Shown one piece after another: positions 42,974 to 64,000 of a stretch of DNA of 64,000 nucleotides (position 1 is its first letter; the number at the start of each line of letters is the position of its first letter). A program made the position numbers and the translations under genes. Below the pieces are notes generated by a model, which saw only the letters and a list, made by a program, of their open reading frames with translations, was not told the origin of the DNA and did not search any database. The DNA is from a virus (taxonomy: Duplodnaviria; Heunggongvirae; Uroviricota; Caudoviricetes), in IMG/VR virus record IMGVR_UViG_646311924_000007, positions 1 to 64,000 of that record, one strand, 5' to 3'.

Positions 42974-43819
42974 ATGCTGGCTAAAGTCACTTTCCTGAGC
43001 TGTATAACGATGAGCGATTTTACTTTTTCTGGCTATGAATTGGCCTGCTTTGTAACACACTCCGGTCTATCCCGTAGCGCCGGGCATATCCTGTCGCAAT
43101 GTGCAAATCTCGCGGCAACAACCAGTGAATACTTCATTCACAAGCCTCACCGCCTGATCGCGGCAGAAACTGGTTATAGCCAATCAACCGTCGTTCGTGC
43201 ATTCCGTGAAGCTGTAAACAAAGGAATCCTGTCAGTAGAGATTGTTATCGGCGATCACCGTGAACGTCGCGCTAACCTGTACCGGTTTACACCATCCTTT
43301 TTGGCCTTCGCACAACAAGCAAAAAATGCGCTGATTGAAAGCAAATTAAAGATCTCTTCAGCGGCAACCAAGGTTAAAGCTGTTCTCGCTAAGACATTGG
43401 CTTTATTTAATTTTTTATCCACACCCCCATGTCAAAATGATACCCCCTCCCCCTGTCAGGATGACGTGGCAATAAAGAATAAGAAGTCACAATTTAAAAA
43501 AACAAAAAGATCAGTTTCCGGCGCTGCCGGAACGACCAAACTCAAAAAATTGACTTCATGGATCGCTGAGGCAAAAGCAAAGGCTGACAATCTGCGGTTA
43601 TCCAAAAAACGCGCTCAAAAACATGAGTTCAAGCAGAAAGTAGAGGCGGCAGCGCGGAAATATGCTTACCTGAAGAACAAGCGTTCTCCTGATATTGGCG
43701 GGGTATCAAACTTCGATAATCTGCCGCATTGCATGACGGTAAACGAAGCTCTTAATGCGGTTTTAGCCAAAAATAAAGATAACGAACAATGGGGTATACC
43801 GGCAGGATTCAGAGGGTGA
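42974..43819 (+). CDS. repL: RepL lytic replication initiator (281 aa)
   Basis: Length as recalled for P1 RepL; synteny after kilA. Confidence 0.85.
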   Translation: MLAKVTFLSCITMSDFTFSGYELACFVTHSGLSRSAGHILSQCANLAATTSEYFIHKPHRLIAAETGYSQSTVVRAFREAVNKGILSVEIVIGDHRERRANLYRFTPSFLAFAQQAKNALIESKLKISSAATKVKAVLAKTLALFNFLSTPPCQNDTPSPCQDDVAIKNKKSQFKKTKRSVSGAAGTTKLKKLTSWIAEAKAKADNLRLSKKRAQKHEFKQKVEAAARKYAYLKNKRSPDIGGVSNFDNLPHCMTVNEALNAVLAKNKDNEQWGIPAGFRG

Positions 43820-43822
43820 TAG

Positions 43823-43839
43823 ATTGCTCTAATCTGGAG
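43823..43839 (+). promoter_or_regulatory. C1 operator-like half match (ATTGCTCTAATCTGGAG)
   Basis: First 11 nt match consensus; same variant tail TGGAG as the site at 2363-2379. Confidence 0.35.
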
Positions 43840-43869
43840 TCACCTGGCGTTTTCAGTTTGAGGTCGGAG

Positions 43870-44115
43870 ATGCAATCTGATTTTTTACAGTTAGCGATCG
43901 CTTTTGCAGGATATGTTTGTATTGGCTTCTGTGTATACATGATCAGCCGAAAAATGCTTGTCGATATCGACCGCAAAGAACAAGCAGAGGAGATCTTAGT
44001 ATGGATTTTCTTTGGCGCGGTCTGGCCATTAGGGATCATGTTTGCTGCAACATTTCTTCTGATGTGGATATTCACCCTTCCAGGTGATTTCTATAGAAAA
44101 AAAGCCAGACATTGA
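43870..44115 (+). CDS. small membrane protein (81 aa from MQSDFLQL)
   Basis: Two hydrophobic helices; position after repL. Confidence 0.4.
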   Translation: MQSDFLQLAIAFAGYVCIGFCVYMISRKMLVDIDRKEQAEEILVWIFFGAVWPLGIMFAATFLLMWIFTLPGDFYRKKARH

Positions 44116-44238
44116 TACAATCGTTGCGGGTGCTTGAGGCTATCTGCTTCAGGCATTACCCGAAAAGCAGATAGAAGAAAGCCCCAGATAACATTACGCG
44201 TCCTGCAAGACGCTTAACATTAATCTGAGGCCACATCT

Positions 44239-44445
44239 ATGCTTAGCATACGTAGATTAGCCTCTTACCGACCAAAAGGTCAAGGAGAAGCAGGCTATGA
44301 AGCAGCAAAAAGCGATGTTAATCGCTCTGATCGTCATCTGTTTAACCGTCATTGTGACGGCACTGGTAACGAGGAAAGACCTCTGCGAGGTACGAATCCG
44401 AACCGGCCAGACGGAGGTCACTGTCTTCACAGCCTACGAATCTGA
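44239..44445 (+). CDS. mok-like overlapping reading frame
   Basis: ORF overlapping almost all of the hok-like gene in another frame, as in hok/sok loci. Confidence 0.35.
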   Translation: MLSIRRLASYRPKGQGEAGYEAAKSDVNRSDRHLFNRHCDGTGNEERPLRGTNPNRPDGGHCLHSLRI

Positions 44446-44452
44446 AAGGTAA
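44297..44452 (+). CDS. hok: Hok/Gef-family membrane toxin (51 aa: MKQQKAMLIALIVICLTVIVTALVTRKDLCEVRIRTGQTEVTVFTAYESER)
   Basis: Clear similarity to E. coli Gef/HokC as recalled; AAGGAG RBS; too short to appear in the ORF track. Confidence 0.8.
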   Translation: MKQQKAMLIALIVICLTVIVTALVTRKDLCEVRIRTGQTEVTVFTAYESER

Positions 44453-44531
44453 GAGACCTGGCGGGGAGAGATCCCCGCCACTCTTCGTGTGTCAGGTATC
44501 CTCAATGCACCCTTTCCTCTCCAAATAAAAA

Positions 44532-44550
44532 AGCTCCCGAAGGAGCTTTA
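44532..44550. terminator. bidirectional hairpin AGCTCC-CGAA-GGAGCT flanked by A6 / T-rich
   Basis: Stem-loop between the hok locus (+) and the convergent minus-strand structural genes. Confidence 0.6.
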
Positions 44551-44568
44551 AAATACAAGGGATTACTA

Positions 44569-49962: not shown

Positions 49963-50025
49963 ACTTTCTCGTGACAAGCAATTTTTTTATTTTTTCGGGA
50001 GTAGGGGAGGAAGGTAAAATCCAAG

Positions 50026-50110
50026 GTGAAATCGTGGCGATTTCACCTTGAAATTTTAGATGGATTTACTTTAAAAACAGTAGGTTAATAGTGAAATTTG
50101 AATGGCGAAA
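50026..50110. other. parS: parS-like centromere: inverted heptamers GTGAAAT / ATTTCAC around TGGCGA box, AT-rich IHF-like spacer, second GTGAAAT...TGGCGA set
   Basis: Box motifs read directly, immediately downstream of parB. Confidence 0.6.
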
Positions 50111-50112
50111 GT

Positions 50113-51114
50113 TTAAGGCTTCGGCTTTTTATCGAGGCTCTTTCTAAGGATATGCCCAATCATCCTGTCGAGTTCTTCCTGTAGCTCTTTTGAAAGTCGA
50201 TTAAACTCATAAGAAAATGCACGGCCTTTCACGCGCTTCCTTGCAAAGCGATCCTTGTCCTCAAATTTCCATAATTCAGTAACTACGGACTTATCTTTAG
50301 AACCTTTATCCGTGAGTAGTGAGGCTTCCTTTGTTATCAAGCGCAGGATTTTATTTTTAACTTCATCTTCGGCCATTTCTTCAATGGATAAGATGTCGTT
50401 TATTTCCGGGGATATGTTTTGAATAAGCTGATCAAACTCTAAATTCTTGTTCCCCATTTCGTCGCCAACAGCACAAAGCGTTTTGTAGTCCGAAAAGGTT
50501 AATTCCGACTGCACAGGGAAAAGGGCGACTAATTCTTCCGGAGCACTCGCTGCCTGGAGAGCACGCGTGACCTTAGCCTGAGACAGCCCTTCTTTGGCTG
50601 CAATATCCTTCTGACTCATCCCATCATTTTTCATTCGCATCAAACGCAGACCTATTTCTCGAATGCTGTGCTGCAATGCTGTCTGAACGTCTTTCGCTAA
50701 ATTTTGCGCTTCCTGAACGCTGATCTCCTGGTCCGTGACTAAAACCCGCAACCCTACGTTCTCTAAGATGGCAGAAGCTCGACGCCGGGAACCATCCAAA
50801 ATTTCAATTTTCCCTGTACCCCGTCTAACACCTATTGCAGGGTAAAATTGCTGATGCTTAATAGTGCTTCGGATACTTTTTAATGATTTTGGCGTAAGAG
50901 ATGCCTGGTCACGCCCGTTGTTATGCTGATCAACAAAGGTATCGCTTTCTACCTGGTTCGGAGGTATTACCTCTTCAATAAATGTGGCCTGGCGACCAGT
51001 TGATAACTTGAATACCTGCTCGACTCGATCGCCAGAGGCTGAAGAACTATCAAATCCGCTTAATATTGAAGGATTAAGGGTTCGCCCAATTGTTGGTCTG
51101 TTTTTCTTTGACAT
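50113..51114 (-). CDS. parB: ParB partition protein (333 aa)
   Basis: Length and sequence character of P1 ParB; follows parA. Confidence 0.9.
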   Translation of the reverse strand: MSKKNRPTIGRTLNPSILSGFDSSSASGDRVEQVFKLSTGRQATFIEEVIPPNQVESDTFVDQHNNGRDQASLTPKSLKSIRSTIKHQQFYPAIGVRRGTGKIEILDGSRRRASAILENVGLRVLVTDQEISVQEAQNLAKDVQTALQHSIREIGLRLMRMKNDGMSQKDIAAKEGLSQAKVTRALQAASAPEELVALFPVQSELTFSDYKTLCAVGDEMGNKNLEFDQLIQNISPEINDILSIEEMAEDEVKNKILRLITKEASLLTDKGSKDKSVVTELWKFEDKDRFARKRVKGRAFSYEFNRLSKELQEELDRMIGHILRKSLDKKPKP

Positions 51115-51130
51115 GGGGGTTTCTTACTCC

Positions 51131-61339: not shown

Positions 61340-61526
61340 CACCTCAATGAATCGTGATTTATAGAGCGATTTAGCTGTTAGCCGCGACAGGCGCGGCGGT
61401 AAGCATGGCTGGGCCTAGTCCTCCCAGACAAACCACCGAGTTGCCAGGTTGACCATGCGCCTAAGTGGCAACGCCGAAGTGCGTTACGAGCGTCCAGTTT
61501 GCCCATCTTCGGGTGGGCGTTTTTTT
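61340..61526 (+). ncRNA. candidate structured RNA ending at an intrinsic terminator (GCCCATC-TTCG-GGTGGGC-T7 at 61501-61526)
   Basis: Several internal hairpins, strong terminator, no credible ORF. Confidence 0.3.
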
Positions 61527-61991
61527 CAGGGTTTTCGTCATGGTTAGCGACTTTGCGGCGGTTTAGAAACTGACCATTAAAGTAAATGCAAACGATGATC
61601 TGATGATGGTAGCGGCCTAAGAAGCCAGATGCCATGGGGTATGAGTCGTCCCCCGTCAAAAAATCGACCGCAGAGTGTCCCCGTCTGTGTATTAGGGAAC
61701 GGGGAGGCACAACAGGTAAGGGCGCTGGTGTGATTAACCAGATGAACGAGAAGGGGCCATCTGTTGGTCAGCGTCCTTTCCTGTTGCGTTTTCTTTTCAG
61801 CGTAACAGCGGTGCTTAACAGCACTTTGGGTACAGTTCCACGAATTTACGGGTATATCCCGTCATGCTGAAGGCGCTAATCACGCTGGAAGCCAGGGTTA
61901 TGCATCCCCTGTTACCGAATTGCAGCCAGGGCGCGGTGCGCCGAAAAGCATACGGAGGTGGAAGCCCTCGCCGGAGACGTACCCGGCAAGT

Positions 61992-62066
61992 GATGGTGTA
62001 GCTCAGCGGTAGAGCAGTTGGCTGTTAACCAACTGGTCGGTAGTTCGAATCCACCCACCATCGCCA
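61992..62066 (+). tRNA. tRNA-Asn (anticodon GTT)
   Basis: Cloverleaf folded by hand; anticodon loop CTGTTAA; CCA encoded. Confidence 0.8.
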
Positions 62067-62071
62067 CTTTA

Positions 62072-62158
62072 GGGGAGTTAGTCCGTAGGGGTAGCGGGGT
62101 AGACTGTAAATCTACTGTCATTGCGACTCGGGTGGTTCGACTCCATCACTCCCCACCA
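62072..62158 (+). tRNA. tRNA-Tyr (anticodon GTA), class II with long variable arm
   Basis: Anticodon stem-loop GTAGA-CTGTAAA-TCTAC, 15-nt variable arm, T-arm GGTGG-TTCGACT-CCATC, CCA encoded. Confidence 0.7.
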
Positions 62159-62162
62159 CATT

Positions 62163-62238
62163 GCCGATTTAGCTCAGTTGGTAGAGCAGTCGCTTTGTAA
62201 GCGAATGGTCAGCGGTTCGATCCCGTTAATCGGCACCA
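62163..62238 (+). tRNA. tRNA-Thr (anticodon TGT)
   Basis: Cloverleaf with acceptor GCCGATT/AATCGGC, anticodon loop TTTGTAA, T-loop TTCGATC, CCA encoded. Confidence 0.75.
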
Positions 62239-62239
62239 A

Positions 62240-62990
62240 CATAACAGGTAAGAGCATTCTCCCTTATGGGGCCTGGCTTAAATGCATCGAGTGCTCTTAC
62301 CGTTGTGATGAAGTGCAGATCTTAGAAGCAACCAGAAGATAAGCATCTGGCTTCACAACATAAACCGCAGGAACGACCAATAAACGGTAGTCCGTATGGA
62401 GAACACCCCGTTGAGGAAGAGGCCTGGCCGGAACCGTAACCGGCGACTGGTAATGTGTGTAAATGGAGCGAAATATGTGGGCGTTTAACGGGATACGGGT
62501 TGTAACAGCGATTATTAACGGCGAACTTAAGTATTCACGTTTCGAGACAAATGAACGTGATGGGAAATGTATTGGTGTGCGGTTAGTAAGAGAATACGCA
62601 TAACAACTACAACGTTGAGAACACTGGCGTAACGGGGTCATATCCCAATCTACGAATAAATGTTGCGTTGCCGCGTGACAACCAGTGTTCTCAACATTGT
62701 GGTGAATGCACAGGCTGATGTGCCGCAACTACAGTAGTGCGCGCTTTGCGGGGCTTGCTACAACCCTGTGTCGGAGTTCAGCACCGACCATCACAGTTTG
62801 ATTCTCTGGCATGAGCATAACGCTGAAATAAGTCCAGTCTGGTGCGGTCTGATCACCCGCCGTTAGCTCCACGAAACGGAGCACGTAACAGGTAAGAGCA
62901 TTCTCCTGTAACGGGTTCATATCCCAATCTACAGGTCCACCAAGAATGCTCTTTCCGTTGCGGTGAATGCGGCTAAGCGCACGCGGGGAA
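62240..62990 (+). repeat. repeated stem-loop modules (CAGGTAAGAGCATTCTCC arms; GTAACGGG-TCATATCCCAATCTAC cores; 14-bp inverted repeat GTTGAGAACACTGG/CCAGTGTTCTCAAC)
   Basis: Repeats and inverted repeats read directly; ORFs in the interval look non-coding. Confidence 0.5.
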
Positions 62991-63111
62991 ATGGTTATAT
63001 CTGTCCATTATTTCTCCTTGTTTCCACGTCCACGGTGGATAACCAGCCAAAGGACACCGGGAGGAACCCGGCACCGCAGCTTTTTTATTCGTTAAATAAT
63101 GGAGTGAGAGG

Positions 63112-63348
63112 ATGCAGAACAATCCGAACAAATGTCGAACGCTATGGGTGCGGTTATATATTTATGCCGTCCTCTGTTTGATTGTGTCACTGGTTCTGTA
63201 TGTTTGGCTTTTGCCAAATATGATCTCATCTAACAGCACAATACTTGTATTGTTGGGAGTCCTTCTCGCGCTCATTTACCCGGCTTTCGCAGTAGTCTTT
63301 TTTCGTGAAAAAACCAGGAAATTAATTAATGAAAAAAACGTTGATTAG
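63112..63348 (+). CDS. small membrane protein (78 aa) upstream of the lipoprotein gene
   Basis: Two hydrophobic helices; overlaps the start of the following gene. Confidence 0.4.
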   Translation: MQNNPNKCRTLWVRLYIYAVLCLIVSLVLYVWLLPNMISSNSTILVLLGVLLALIYPAFAVVFFREKTRKLINEKNVD

Positions 63349-64000
63349 TGCAGCGATTATTTTGGGTTCTTTATGTCTGACCGGATGCGATCGGGTAGAG
63401 CCAGGTAACGTAGGGATCAAAGTAAATAAGCTGGGGGATGATAAAGGTATCGGTGAAGTAGTTGGCGTTGGTCGCTACTGGACAGGCTTGAATACTGAAG
63501 TTTATATCTTCCCGACCTTTAAGCAAATGAAGACATACGATGAGCCGTTCAGCTTCCAGATGAGCGACGGAACAACCATTGGTTACCACATCGGCGTAGC
63601 CTACAAGGTTGATCCAGCAAAAGTCACAACGGTATTTCAGACCTATCGCAAAGGTGTAGATGATATTACTGATACCGATCTACGCCAGAAGGTTGCAGAT
63701 GCTCTGAACCGATTAGCCAGCAAAATGACCACCGACAAATTTATCGACGGTGGCAAATCTGAATTGCTTGATGCAGCCCTTAAAGACATTCAGGAAGAAA
63801 TGACGCCAATCGGCATTCAGGTGATGAGCCTCTCTTATGTAGGTAAGCCAGAATACCCGCCAACAGTTATTGACAGTATTAACGCCAAAGTCACGGCAAA
63901 CCAAAAAACCCTGCAACGCGAGCAAGAGGTCAAACAACGTGAAGCAGAGGCCAACATGCTGCGCGCGGAAGCTGCCGGACAGGCTGATGCTATTCGCACA
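63329..64000 (+). CDS. lipoprotein with SPFH/band-7-like region, truncated by window end
   Basis: Signal peptide with lipobox (SLCLTGC); continues to the window edge. Confidence 0.6.
   Translation, partial: MKKTLISAAIILGSLCLTGCDRVEPGNVGIKVNKLGDDKGIGEVVGVGRYWTGLNTEVYIFPTFKQMKTYDEPFSFQMSDGTTIGYHIGVAYKVDPAKVTTVFQTYRKGVDDITDTDLRQKVADALNRLASKMTTDKFIDGGKSELLDAALKDIQEEMTPIGIQVMSLSYVGKPEYPPTVIDSINAKVTANQKTLQREQEVKQREAEANMLRAEAAGQADAIRT

What the first reader, a model, noticed from the sequence alone, without database searches (positions are those of the whole stretch)
44120..44550. hok/mok-type type I toxin locus directly downstream of repL
A 51-codon gene encodes a clear Hok/Gef-family toxin with the expected overlapping mok-like frame (44239-44445), an upstream leader with inverted repeats (about 44140-44180) and a 3' hairpin terminator. 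I know P1 for phd-doc addiction and do not recall a hok homologue, so this would add a second post-segregational killing or abortive-infection module next to the lytic replicon. The gene is below the ORF-track length cutoff and easy to miss.
Basis: partly seen in the sequence, partly recalled or inferred. Interest (0 to 1): 0.5.

Follow-up and report, generated by a model that had tools for sequence, protein, structure and literature searches.

The report
Hok/Sok toxin-antitoxin cassette in P1-like plasmid
The window, from a P1-like phage-plasmid of E. coli, carries a complete hok/mok/sok killer-gene cassette where textbook phage P1 has three other genes; it is real, but it is already annotated as hokD in hundreds of database records, so it is an ordinary finding.

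Summary
Window 44128-44512 is a complete hok/mok/sok type I toxin-antitoxin unit.

- **Toxin:** a 51-aa Hok (44297-44452) scores Pfam HOK_GEF E 2.4e-22.
- **mok:** a 68-aa overlapping frame runs 44239-44445.
- **Leader:** it matches Rfam RF01794 at 114.8 bits against a cutoff of 59.
- **Antisense Sok:** a Sok gene lies on the minus strand (about 44247 to 44177), with promoter boxes at the positions seen in R1-type loci.
- **Fold-back:** the 5' end (44128-44139) pairs with a 3' fbi box (44500-44512). This pairing holds in all 60 relatives and changes compensatorily in distant plasmid loci.

The unit lies in a 693-bp cassette (43834-44526), together with an 81-aa membrane-protein gene. That cassette replaces rlfA-rlfB-pmgF of reference P1.

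The arrangement is not rare. It occurs in 215 PLSDB plasmids, against 99 with the P1 arrangement, and in 198 of 5426 complete E. coli genomes. RefSeq calls the gene hokD, and Venturini 2019 noted an "antibacterial toxin" at this spot.

The most likely role is stabilisation of the plasmid prophage, and possibly phage exclusion. Neither was tested. The locus belongs to the chromosomal/prophage Hok clade, whose tested members failed to give post-segregational killing.

Novelty is low.

The parts
43834..44526 (+). 693-bp cargo cassette (orf81 + hok/mok/sok) that replaces the 1826-bp rlfA-rlfB-pmgF segment of reference P1
   Evidence: BLAST against NC_005856: homology ends at window 43833 (P1 51585) and resumes at 44527 (P1 53412). 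The right boundary 44527 is also shared by SJ46 and RCS47.
43870..44115 (+). orf81, a small predicted membrane protein of unknown function that neighbours the hok unit. The 108-aa ORF from 43789 is probably an over-extension.
   Evidence: phrog_3772 at 7.9e-54 matches residues 28-108 only. RefSeq annotates the 81-aa version. Homologues occur only in P1-like phages, including hok-less SJ46 at 44% identity.
44094..44121 (+). Predicted hok promoter: -35 TAGAAA (44094-44099), a 16-nt spacer, then an extended -10 TGaTACAAT (-10 at 44116-44121)
   Evidence: Promoter scan. The -10 aligns with TAGAAT of 933W. It sits 7 nt upstream of the conserved mRNA 5' end.
44128..44549 (+). Predicted full-length hok mRNA. 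The conserved unit is 44128-44512; the 3' end itself is inferred.
   Evidence: The Rfam alignment starts at 44128. Homology to lambdoid hok loci spans 44116/44126-44512 in about 60 loci. Fold dG is -168.7 kcal/mol, z -8.85.
44128..44139 (+). tac-like 5' end GGGUGCUUGAGG, which pairs with fbi
   Evidence: MFE fold; duplex dG -21 kcal/mol; invariant in 60 relatives.
44140..44174 (+).
   Evidence: Rfam structure. Helix 2 has two pairs with compensatory changes: A-U to G-C in 8 sequences and C-G to U-A in 9.
44177..44247 (-). Predicted Sok antisense RNA, about 71 nt: a 5' tail, a long hairpin and a U-rich tail
   Evidence: The annotated sokW of phage 933W (L003:1554-1624) maps here. Fold dG is -31.9 kcal/mol, z -5.45.
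44254..44283 (-). Predicted Sok promoter: -35 TTGACC (44283 to 44278), an 18-nt spacer, -10 TAATCT (44259 to 44254)
   Evidence: The same CTCCTTGnnn-17/18-GGCTAnnCT arrangement sits at the same place in 933W and in five distant plasmid hok loci. The generic sigma-70 scan did not call it.
44232..44253 (.). Hypervariable patch covering the mok start codon surroundings, which is also the 5' tail of Sok
   Evidence: Entropy is 0.70 bits per column, against 0.167 overall and 0.05 in the adjacent hairpin. There are 19 alleles among 60 sequences.
44239..44445 (+). mok-like ORF, 68 aa, out of frame with hok; its SD GAGG is at 44227-44230
   Evidence: ORF list. The same ATG is used in all relatives. 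In 61 lambdoid-type loci it is in frame with hok; in 19 sequences with the P1-like allele (the window included) it is out of frame because of a T at 44280.
44262..44269 (+). CUCUUACC box, which pairs with GGUAAGAG at 44448-44455 across the hok stop codon. I take this to be the ucb/dcb pair described for R1 (from memory).
   Evidence: Helix 7 of the MFE is 89% paired in 60 relatives.
44297..44452 (+). hok toxin gene, 51 aa; SD AGGAG at 44283-44287
   Evidence: Pfam PF01848 at 2.4e-22; PHROG 251; RefSeq 'HokD' on identical DNA.
44435..44440 (+). Tyr47-Glu48 codons UAC-GAA, a TACG motif reported as a TadA A-to-I (Tyr to Cys) editing site in Hok mRNAs
   Evidence: Read from the sequence. The motif is described in bioRxiv 10.1101/2025.08.07.668861. 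Editing was not tested here.
44459..44480 (+). Conserved G+C-rich hairpin just after the hok stop codon. It contains the IS186 target GGAGAGATCC (44465-44474).
   Evidence: Helix 16 has one compensatory pair. IS186/IS421 is inserted here in L009, L012 and L018.
44500..44512 (+). fbi-like box CCUCAAUGCACCC, complementary to the mRNA 5' end
   Evidence: 100% paired in 60 relatives, and all six substitutions convert G-C to G-U.
44530..44549 (.). Hairpin AAAGCUCC-CGAA-GGAGCUUU belonging to the P1 backbone. It is the bplB terminator on the minus strand and a possible but weak 3' end for the hok mRNA.
   Evidence: Shared with reference P1. Called terminator-like only on the minus strand.

Best explanation
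This is an intact hok/mok/sok type I toxin-antitoxin cassette of the HokC/HokD/HokW (chromosomal and prophage) clade. It is carried as interchangeable cargo in the repL-bplB variable region of a P1-like phage-plasmid.

**Shown by sequence.** All of the following are present: a Hok toxin ORF, an upstream mok ORF that reads through the hok start, a conserved leader, an antisense Sok gene with its own promoter and hairpin/U-tail opposite the mok ribosome-binding site, and a long-range 5'/3' (tac/fbi) helix.

**Inferred by analogy with R1 hok/sok.** The stable full-length hok mRNA is kept untranslatable by the tac/fbi fold-back. Slow 3' trimming removes fbi and refolds the leader. The abundant but short-lived Sok RNA then pairs with the mok start region, blocks mok and hence hok translation, and triggers cleavage. 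When the Sok supply stops, through plasmid loss or transcription shut-off, Hok is made and depolarises the inner membrane.

**Most likely biological role.** It stabilises the low-copy plasmid prophage alongside phd-doc. Exclusion of other phages is a possible side or alternative role.

My confidence that this is a structurally intact hok/sok unit is about 0.95. My confidence that it actually gives post-segregational killing is about 0.45. The figure of 0.8 below is for identity plus mechanism.
For: **Protein.** Pfam HOK_GEF scores 78.7 bits and PHROG 251 scores 4.9e-32.

**Leader.** Rfam RF01794 scores 114.8 bits against a gathering score of 59.

**Sok.** The annotated sokW of 933W maps to 44177-44247 on the minus strand. 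The promoter boxes lie in the same positions as in five distant plasmid loci, including an R1-type one. The hairpin plus U-rich tail folds with z -5.45.

**Fold-back.**
- The MFE pairs nucleotides 1-12 with 44500-44512.
- Plasmid loci have GGCGCUU paired with AAGCGCC at the same distance, whereas this clade has GGGUGCUU paired with AAYGCACCC. That is a compensatory change.
- In 60 relatives the helix is 100% paired and every substitution converts G-C to G-U.
- The whole structure is 93% paired, against 36-43% when the 3' partners are slid.

**Selection.** The hok ORF has entropy 0.06 bits per column while the DNA is about 88% identical to lambdoid alleles.

**Context.** The cassette sits on a low-copy plasmid prophage. 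A 99.3%-identical relative also has phd-doc. The arrangement is kept in 215 plasmids and 198 E. coli genomes.
Against: - No expression or killing data exist for this allele.
- It belongs to the chromosomal/prophage clade. Native hokA, hokB and hokC loci of that clade were reported not to mediate post-segregational killing or rifampicin activation (as summarised in bioRxiv 10.1101/2025.08.07.668861).
- Unlike the plasmid loci examined, the conserved unit has no terminator of its own after fbi. The nearest hairpin is P1 backbone and is followed by only UUU on the plus strand.
- The Sok -10 (TAATCT) matches consensus at 3 of 6 positions, has an 18-nt spacer, and was not called by the generic scan.
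- Most E. coli genomes carry related loci, with a median of 2 matching places per genome. Their Sok RNAs might neutralise this hok.
- The wide conservation among P1-like plasmids is at 99% identity or more, so it may reflect recent common descent and not selection.
- The structure used for the pair counts was derived from the window itself, which inflates the percentage paired.
Confidence: 0.8

Rival explanations
1. The same molecular device is kept mainly as an abortive-infection or phage-exclusion module. A superinfecting lytic phage shuts off host transcription, Sok decays, Hok kills the cell, and the lysogen population and its P1-like plasmid are protected.
For: The locus sits in a cargo hot spot that holds at least four alternative gene sets. 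Its closest relatives lie in lambdoid and Stx prophages and not in plasmids. Hok genes are reported to be enriched in prophages, with a phage-defence role under discussion (bioRxiv 10.1101/2025.08.07.668861). R1 hok/sok was reported to exclude T4 (own knowledge: Pecota and Wood 1996).
Against: The same preprint found no enrichment of hok next to defence systems. No defence genes are seen beside it here. There are no experimental data for this clade.
Confidence: 0.25
2. The locus is structurally complete but functionally silent: a selfish hitch-hiker that neither stabilises the plasmid nor defends it. This is what was reported for chromosomal hok loci.
For: - It belongs to the HokC/D/W clade, whose tested native loci were inactive in post-segregational killing.
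- It has no terminator of its own after fbi.
- IS186 repeatedly splits hok from fbi in P1-like relatives without loss of the element (PMC6906374).
- Hok-less P1-like phages exist in which only the leader/sok part remains.
- Tyr47 may need A-to-I editing for full toxicity.
Against: Every regulatory element is intact and base-pairing is preserved across relatives. The Hok protein is under clear constraint. HokD peptide was reported toxic on expression. The cassette is twice as common as the P1 arrangement.
Confidence: 0.2
3. The locus has a lytic-cycle function. On induction, read-through from the C1-controlled kilA-repL operon crosses orf81 into hok and yields a 5'-extended transcript that escapes normal control. 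Hok then helps kill or permeabilise the host.
For: The locus has the same orientation as repL and lies 309 nt downstream of its stop codon. Only a weak terminator-like hairpin lies between them, at 44072-44087. The cassette junction truncates the C1 operator Orlf.
Against: The unit has a promoter of its own and the same boundaries in unrelated phage contexts, so its position next to repL looks incidental. Reference P1 lyses without it. There is no evidence for read-through.
Confidence: 0.05

Closest known systems
hokW/mokW/sokW of Stx phage 933W, with the equivalent loci of Rac-type and other lambdoid prophages
   Same: The DNA is 87-92% identical over the whole unit, window 44116/44126-44512. 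The tac, fbi, leader hairpins and Sok region are the same. The Hok proteins are 94-98% identical.
   Different: - The P1-like allele has an extra T at 44280. This puts mok out of frame with hok and changes the Sok -35 from TTGCCT to TTGACC.
- It has its own sequence in the hypervariable patch, differing at 4-11 of 22 positions.
- It resides on a plasmid prophage, not an integrated one.
E. coli K-12 hokD (relF) of the Qin prophage
   Same: RefSeq/PGAP names the window's protein HokD. The commonest relative...EVAVFTAYEPEE, differs from the window's Hok at 3 of 51 residues. That this variant equals K-12 HokD is from memory.
   Different: The window's locus keeps the complete leader, mok, sok and fbi. 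From my own knowledge (Pedersen and Gerdes 1999), K-12 hokD lacks the upstream regulatory part; this was not tested here. NCBIfam Hok models score below their cutoffs (49.5 against 73), so the name rests on close identity and not on an equivalog model.
hok/sok (parB) of plasmid R1 and the flm, srnB and pnd loci of F and other conjugative plasmids
   Same: The architecture matches element by element: promoter, tac 5' end, leader hairpins, mok, Sok promoter abutting the hok SD, Sok hairpin with U-tail, and fbi about 370-390 nt downstream. Like these, it sits on a low-copy plasmid.
   Different: Hok identity is only about 40%. The plasmid loci have a strong terminator of their own directly after fbi, which the window's unit lacks. 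Post-segregational killing has been shown for R1 and not for this clade.
phd-doc of phage P1
   Same: It is the addiction module of the same kind of plasmid prophage, and it co-resides with this hok in the relative NZ_CP027443.
   Different: It is a type II system (protein antitoxin, Fic-family toxin), is unrelated in sequence, and lies elsewhere on the genome. It is not in the window.

Membership tests
[quoted passage not shown] | A toxin ORF of about 50 aa in the Hok/Gef family | tested here: met
   PF01848 scores 78.7 bits against a cutoff of 22, E 2.4e-22, covering profile positions 1-42 of 42. PHROG 251 scores 4.9e-32.
[quoted passage not shown] | A mok ORF with its own SD that starts upstream of the hok start codon and is translated across it | tested here: met
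   ATG at 44239, GAGG at 44227-44230, 68 codons ending at 44445. The same start is conserved in 80 relatives, in either frame.
[quoted passage not shown] | A conserved hok mRNA leader that reaches the curated Rfam score | tested here: met
   RF01794 scores 114.8 bits against 59, full model 1-157, on the plus strand at 44128-44302. Although the family is named 'sok', the match is in the hok-sense direction and ends at the hok AUG. It therefore attests the leader, not the antisense RNA itself.
[quoted passage not shown] | An antisense Sok gene (promoter, about 65-70 nt RNA, terminator hairpin) opposite the mok translation start | tested here: met
   The position is homologous to the annotated sokW. 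The promoter boxes are conserved in place across seven loci. A hairpin and U-rich tail are present. Caveat: the generic promoter scan did not call it, and transcription was not tested.
[quoted passage not shown] | Long-range pairing of the mRNA 5' end (tac) with a 3' fold-back-inhibition box (fbi) | tested here: met
   44128-44139 pairs with 44500-44512 in the MFE. The change is compensatory relative to plasmid loci. The helix is 100% paired in 60 relatives.
[quoted passage not shown] | Hok toxicity, Sok instability against hok mRNA stability, and 3' processing to an active mRNA | not testable with these tools
   This needs expression, Northern or RACE analysis and half-life measurements.
Plasmid-type, PSK-proficient hok loci (R1 hok/sok, F flm/srnB, pnd) | A strong rho-independent terminator belonging to the unit directly after fbi | tested here: not met
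   L084, L085, L087, L088 and L091 all have AAGGGG...CCCCUUUU after fbi. The window and 933W do not. In the window, homology to other hok loci stops at 44512, and the next hairpin is P1 backbone.
Plasmid-type, PSK-proficient hok loci (R1 hok/sok, F flm/srnB, pnd) | Close protein relationship to the R1 Hok, Flm, SrnB or PndA toxins | tested here: not met
   Hits to conjugative-plasmid Hok genes are 35-45% identical. Hits at 90% or more are the HokD type on P1-like and related plasmids.
Plasmid-type, PSK-proficient hok loci (R1 hok/sok, F flm/srnB, pnd) | Demonstrated post-segregational killing | not testable with these tools
Chromosomal-clade loci were reported negative.
HokD (NCBIfam / PGAP naming) | Reaches a curated NCBIfam Hok model cutoff | tested here: not met
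   NF007279 scores 49.5 against 73. The NF007290 (HokA) model scores 38.1 against 89. The HokD name in RefSeq must come from near-identity to a named protein.

The most novel reading that the evidence does not exclude
The P1-like hok/sok allele may be one player in competition between related elements. Its private sequence in the hypervariable Sok-recognition patch (44232-44253) would make it blind to the Sok RNAs of the chromosomal prophage copies that most E. coli carry, so it can still kill after plasmid loss. Hok-less P1-like phages such as RCS47 and SJ46, which keep only the leader and sok half of the locus, would express an orphan Sok that disarms it. That would be an anti-addiction device among incompatible phage-plasmids.
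Probability: 0.12. Interest if true: 0.5.

Novelty: already known. Interest (0 to 1): 0.18.

Why it matters
The finding matters mainly as a correction of perspective. The textbook P1 genome is the minority arrangement at this site. About twice as many sequenced P1-like plasmids carry orf81 plus hok/sok (215) as carry rlfA-rlfB-pmgF (99). P1-like phage-plasmids spread resistance genes (ESBL, mcr), so a second maintenance or exclusion module could affect how hard they are to cure and how they compete. This is a routine member of a very well studied family, however, and it opens no long-standing question.

Tried and rejected
- **Chance ORF.** Rejected on the Pfam, PHROG and Rfam scores.
- **108-aa ORF from 43789 overlapping repL.** Rejected in favour of the 81-aa gene from 43870, because the PHROG match covers only residues 28-108 and RefSeq annotates the shorter form.
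- **Rfam 'sok' hit as proof of the antisense RNA.** Rejected. The match is on the hok-sense strand and covers the whole leader up to the hok AUG. The minus-strand 'sok' hit (21 bits) and the ceN48, CRISPR-DR46 and sbrA hits are all below their gathering scores and are treated as chance.
- **Distal hairpin at 44530-44549 as part of the hok unit.** Rejected. It is P1 backbone.
- **Covariation for tac/fbi within close relatives.** Uninformative, because the 5' end is invariant. It was resolved by fetching five distant plasmid loci. L086, L089 and L090 lacked the conserved 5' motif and were dropped.
- **A second hok, or phd-doc, in the window.** None found.
- **Literature on hok in P1-like elements.** The searches found no dedicated description. 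They found only a table entry, '2 orfs including antibacterial toxin', and the listing of rlfA-rlfB-pmgF as a variable region.
- **Not checked.** The rest of the reference P1 genome outside 50000-64000 was not scanned for hok. That P1 has none elsewhere rests on my memory of Lobocka et al. 2004.
- **Heavy tools.** Protein database searches and structure prediction were not used because the answer did not need them.

Full report
**What the window is.** The kilobase around the finding is 100% identical to several E. coli plasmids of 90-100 kb and 99.3-99.9% identical to phage records labelled P1 or P1-like. Over 47.6 kb the window is 99.3% identical to plasmid NZ_CP027443, which encodes C1 repressor, Cre-type integrase, DarA, ParAB, RepA and the P1 structural genes. 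The window therefore comes from a P1-like phage-plasmid of E. coli.

**Checking the observation.** The 51-codon ORF lies at 44297-44452 and the overlapping 68-codon ORF at 44239-44445.
- The 51-aa product matches Pfam HOK_GEF over the whole profile (78.7 bits, cutoff 22, E 2.4e-22). It also matches PHROG 251 'MokW-like host killing' (4.9e-32).
- Rfam RF01794 ('sok') matches 44128-44302 at 114.8 bits against a gathering score of 59. The match is on the hok-sense strand, spans 175 nt and ends at the hok AUG. It documents the conserved hok leader and not the antisense RNA as such.
- A promoter-like site with an extended -10 (TGaTACAAT, 44113-44121) lies 7 nt upstream of the conserved 5' end GGGUGCUUGAGG at 44128.

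All the claimed parts are present and far beyond chance.

**The antisense gene.**
- *Position:* phage 933W has an annotated sokW RNA. Aligned to the window, it covers 44177-44247 on the minus strand.
- *Promoter:* upstream on that strand are TTGACC (44283 to 44278), an 18-nt spacer and TAATCT (44259 to 44254). The same CTCCTTGnnn-17/18-GGCTAnnCT arrangement, with the -35 box abutting the hok Shine-Dalgarno sequence, occurs at the same place in 933W and in five distant plasmid hok loci, one of them R1-like.
- *Structure:* the predicted RNA has a free 5' tail, a long hairpin and a U-rich tail (dG -31.9 kcal/mol, z -5.45). It is complementary to the mok SD and start codon.
- *Caveat:* the generic sigma-70 scan did not call this promoter, so it rests on positional homology.

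**The fold-back.**
- *In the window:* folding 44128-44551 gives -168.7 kcal/mol (z -8.85), and the first 12 nucleotides pair with 44500-44512.
- *In distant loci:* five plasmid hok loci with about 40% Hok identity have the 5' end GGCGCUUGAGGC paired with ...AAGCGCC 371-391 nt downstream. In the window and in 933W the partners are GGGUGCUUGAGG and CCUCAAYGCACCC, which is a compensatory change.
- *In close relatives:* in 60 distinct sequences from viral contigs this helix is paired in every one, and all six substitutions convert G-C to G-U. The 5' hairpin has two pairs with double changes. The whole window-derived structure is 93% paired, against 36-43% when the 3' partners are slid by 1-3 columns. 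These relatives are close and the structure came from the window, so the percentage is inflated. The cross-clade compensation is the stronger evidence.
- *A second long-range helix:* CUCUUACC (44262-44269) pairs with GGUAAGAG (44448-44455) across the hok stop codon. I take this to be the ucb/dcb pair of the R1 literature (from memory).

**Where the unit ends.** Homology to lambdoid hok loci runs from 44116/44126 to 44512 in about 60 loci. Plasmid-type loci have a strong terminator of their own right after fbi; this clade does not. It scores as a terminator only on the minus strand, downstream of bplB. It may still serve as the hok 3' end, but that is inference.

**Relation to textbook P1.**
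- *The replacement:* against NC_005856, homology stops at window 43833, inside the C1 operator Orlf, and resumes at 44527. In P1 the 1826 bp in between carry rlfA, rlfB and pmgF. In the window, 693 bp carry an 81-aa membrane-protein gene (43870-44115) and the hok unit.
- *Prevalence:* the hok arrangement is the commoner one. It is found in 215 PLSDB plasmids, against 99 with the P1 arrangement. It is also found in 6 phage records and in 198 of 5426 complete E. coli genomes.
- *Other cargoes:* SJ46 and RCS47 carry yet other genes in the same interval.

**Is it known?** Yes.
- RefSeq annotates the gene as 'type I toxin-antitoxin system toxin HokD' on identical DNA, and GenBank MH422554 labels it MokW.
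- Venturini et al. [quoted passage not shown]
- PMC9603915 names rlfA-rlfB-pmgF as one of eight variable regions of P1-like phage-plasmids.
- A 2026 preprint (10.1101/2025.08.07.668861) catalogues thousands of Hok genes and reports enrichment in prophages and large plasmids.
- I found no paper that dissects this particular locus or tests it.

**How it most likely works.** By analogy with R1, Sok blocks mok and hence hok translation while the element is present. Loss of the Sok supply lets the processed hok mRNA be translated, and Hok kills the cell. On a low-copy plasmid prophage the obvious pay-off is stabilisation, in addition to phd-doc, which the close relative NZ_CP027443 carries but which lies outside the window.

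Three points temper this reading.
1. The allele belongs to the chromosomal/prophage clade, whose tested native loci did not give post-segregational killing.
2. It has no terminator of its own after fbi.
3. Related loci, and therefore related Sok RNAs, are present in 4747 of 5426 E. coli genomes.

Phage exclusion and a functionally silent hitch-hiker are the live rivals.

**Details seen along the way.**
- The P1-like allele has an extra T at 44280. This puts mok out of frame with hok, whereas mok is in frame in 61 lambdoid loci, and it improves the Sok -35 box.
- The most variable stretch of the whole unit is 44232-44253, which is the 5' tail of Sok and the mok start region. It has 19 alleles in 60 sequences, which suggests diversification of antisense specificity.
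- IS186/IS421 is inserted in the hairpin after hok at GGAGAGATCC (44465-44474) in three P1-like contigs. This is the same target repeat reported for pSvP1.
- SJ46 and RCS47 have no hok ORF but keep 44000-44259: the promoter, the leader and the complete Sok-coding part, with the break exactly at the Sok -10.
- Tyr47-Glu48 (UAC-GAA, 44435-44440) is the TACG motif reported as a TadA editing site in Hok mRNAs.

**Verdict.** The locus is a real, complete and correctly interpreted hok/mok/sok unit. It is already annotated and is a routine member of a well-known family, so interest is low.

Noticed in passing
L095:1501-1760 (RCS47) and L094:1328-1580 (SJ46), equivalent to window 44000-44259: Two P1-like phages without any hok ORF keep the hok promoter, the leader and the whole Sok-coding part. 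Homology breaks exactly at the Sok -10, and the new DNA offers a possible substitute -35 (TTGCTC with an 18-nt spacer). This looks like an orphan sok remnant.
   Followed up: partly
window 44465-44474; L009, L012 and L018 at about 1679: IS186/IS421 is inserted in the G+C-rich hairpin just after hok in three P1-like viral contigs, at the target GGAGAGATCC. This is the same direct repeat reported for pSvP1 (PMC6906374). The insertion separates hok from its fbi box.
   Followed up: partly
window 44232-44253: This is the most variable stretch of the hok unit among 60 relatives: 0.70 bits per column against 0.167 overall, with 19 alleles. It is flanked by near-invariant hairpins. It covers the mok start region and the 5' tail of Sok, so it is a likely antisense-specificity determinant.
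   Followed up: partly
window 44280: A single extra T, specific to the P1-like allele, shifts mok out of frame with hok. The result is a 68-aa separate ORF, in place of the 70-aa N-extended Hok seen in 61 lambdoid loci. The same T changes the Sok -35 from TTGCCT to TTGACC and lengthens the spacer to 18 nt.
   Followed up: yes
window 43823-43839: The left junction of the cassette (43833/43834) cuts the P1 C1 operator Orlf (Op55) after ATTGCTCTAAT. Whether the remaining part still binds C1 is unknown.
   Followed up: no
window 43870-44115: orf81 is a small predicted membrane protein (phrog_3772) found only in P1-like elements. It has a 44%-identical homologue in hok-less SJ46, so it is a resident of this variable region and not a partner of hok. 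Its function is unknown.
   Followed up: partly
window 44435-44440: Hok Tyr47-Glu48 is encoded UAC-GAA, the TACG motif reported as a TadA A-to-I editing site that recodes Tyr to Cys in Hok family mRNAs. Editing might be needed for full toxicity.
   Followed up: no
window 43834-44526 compared with L002, L094 and L095: The repL-bplB interval holds at least four different cargo sets in P1-like genomes. They share a right boundary at window 44527, next to the bplB terminator hairpin, which suggests a recombination hot spot.
   Followed up: partly
window 42974-43819: RepL gets no Pfam or NCBIfam hit at E 0.01 or better. RefSeq variously labels it 'MarR family transcriptional regulator' or 'helix-turn-helix domain-containing protein', so its annotation is inconsistent across records.
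   Followed up: no
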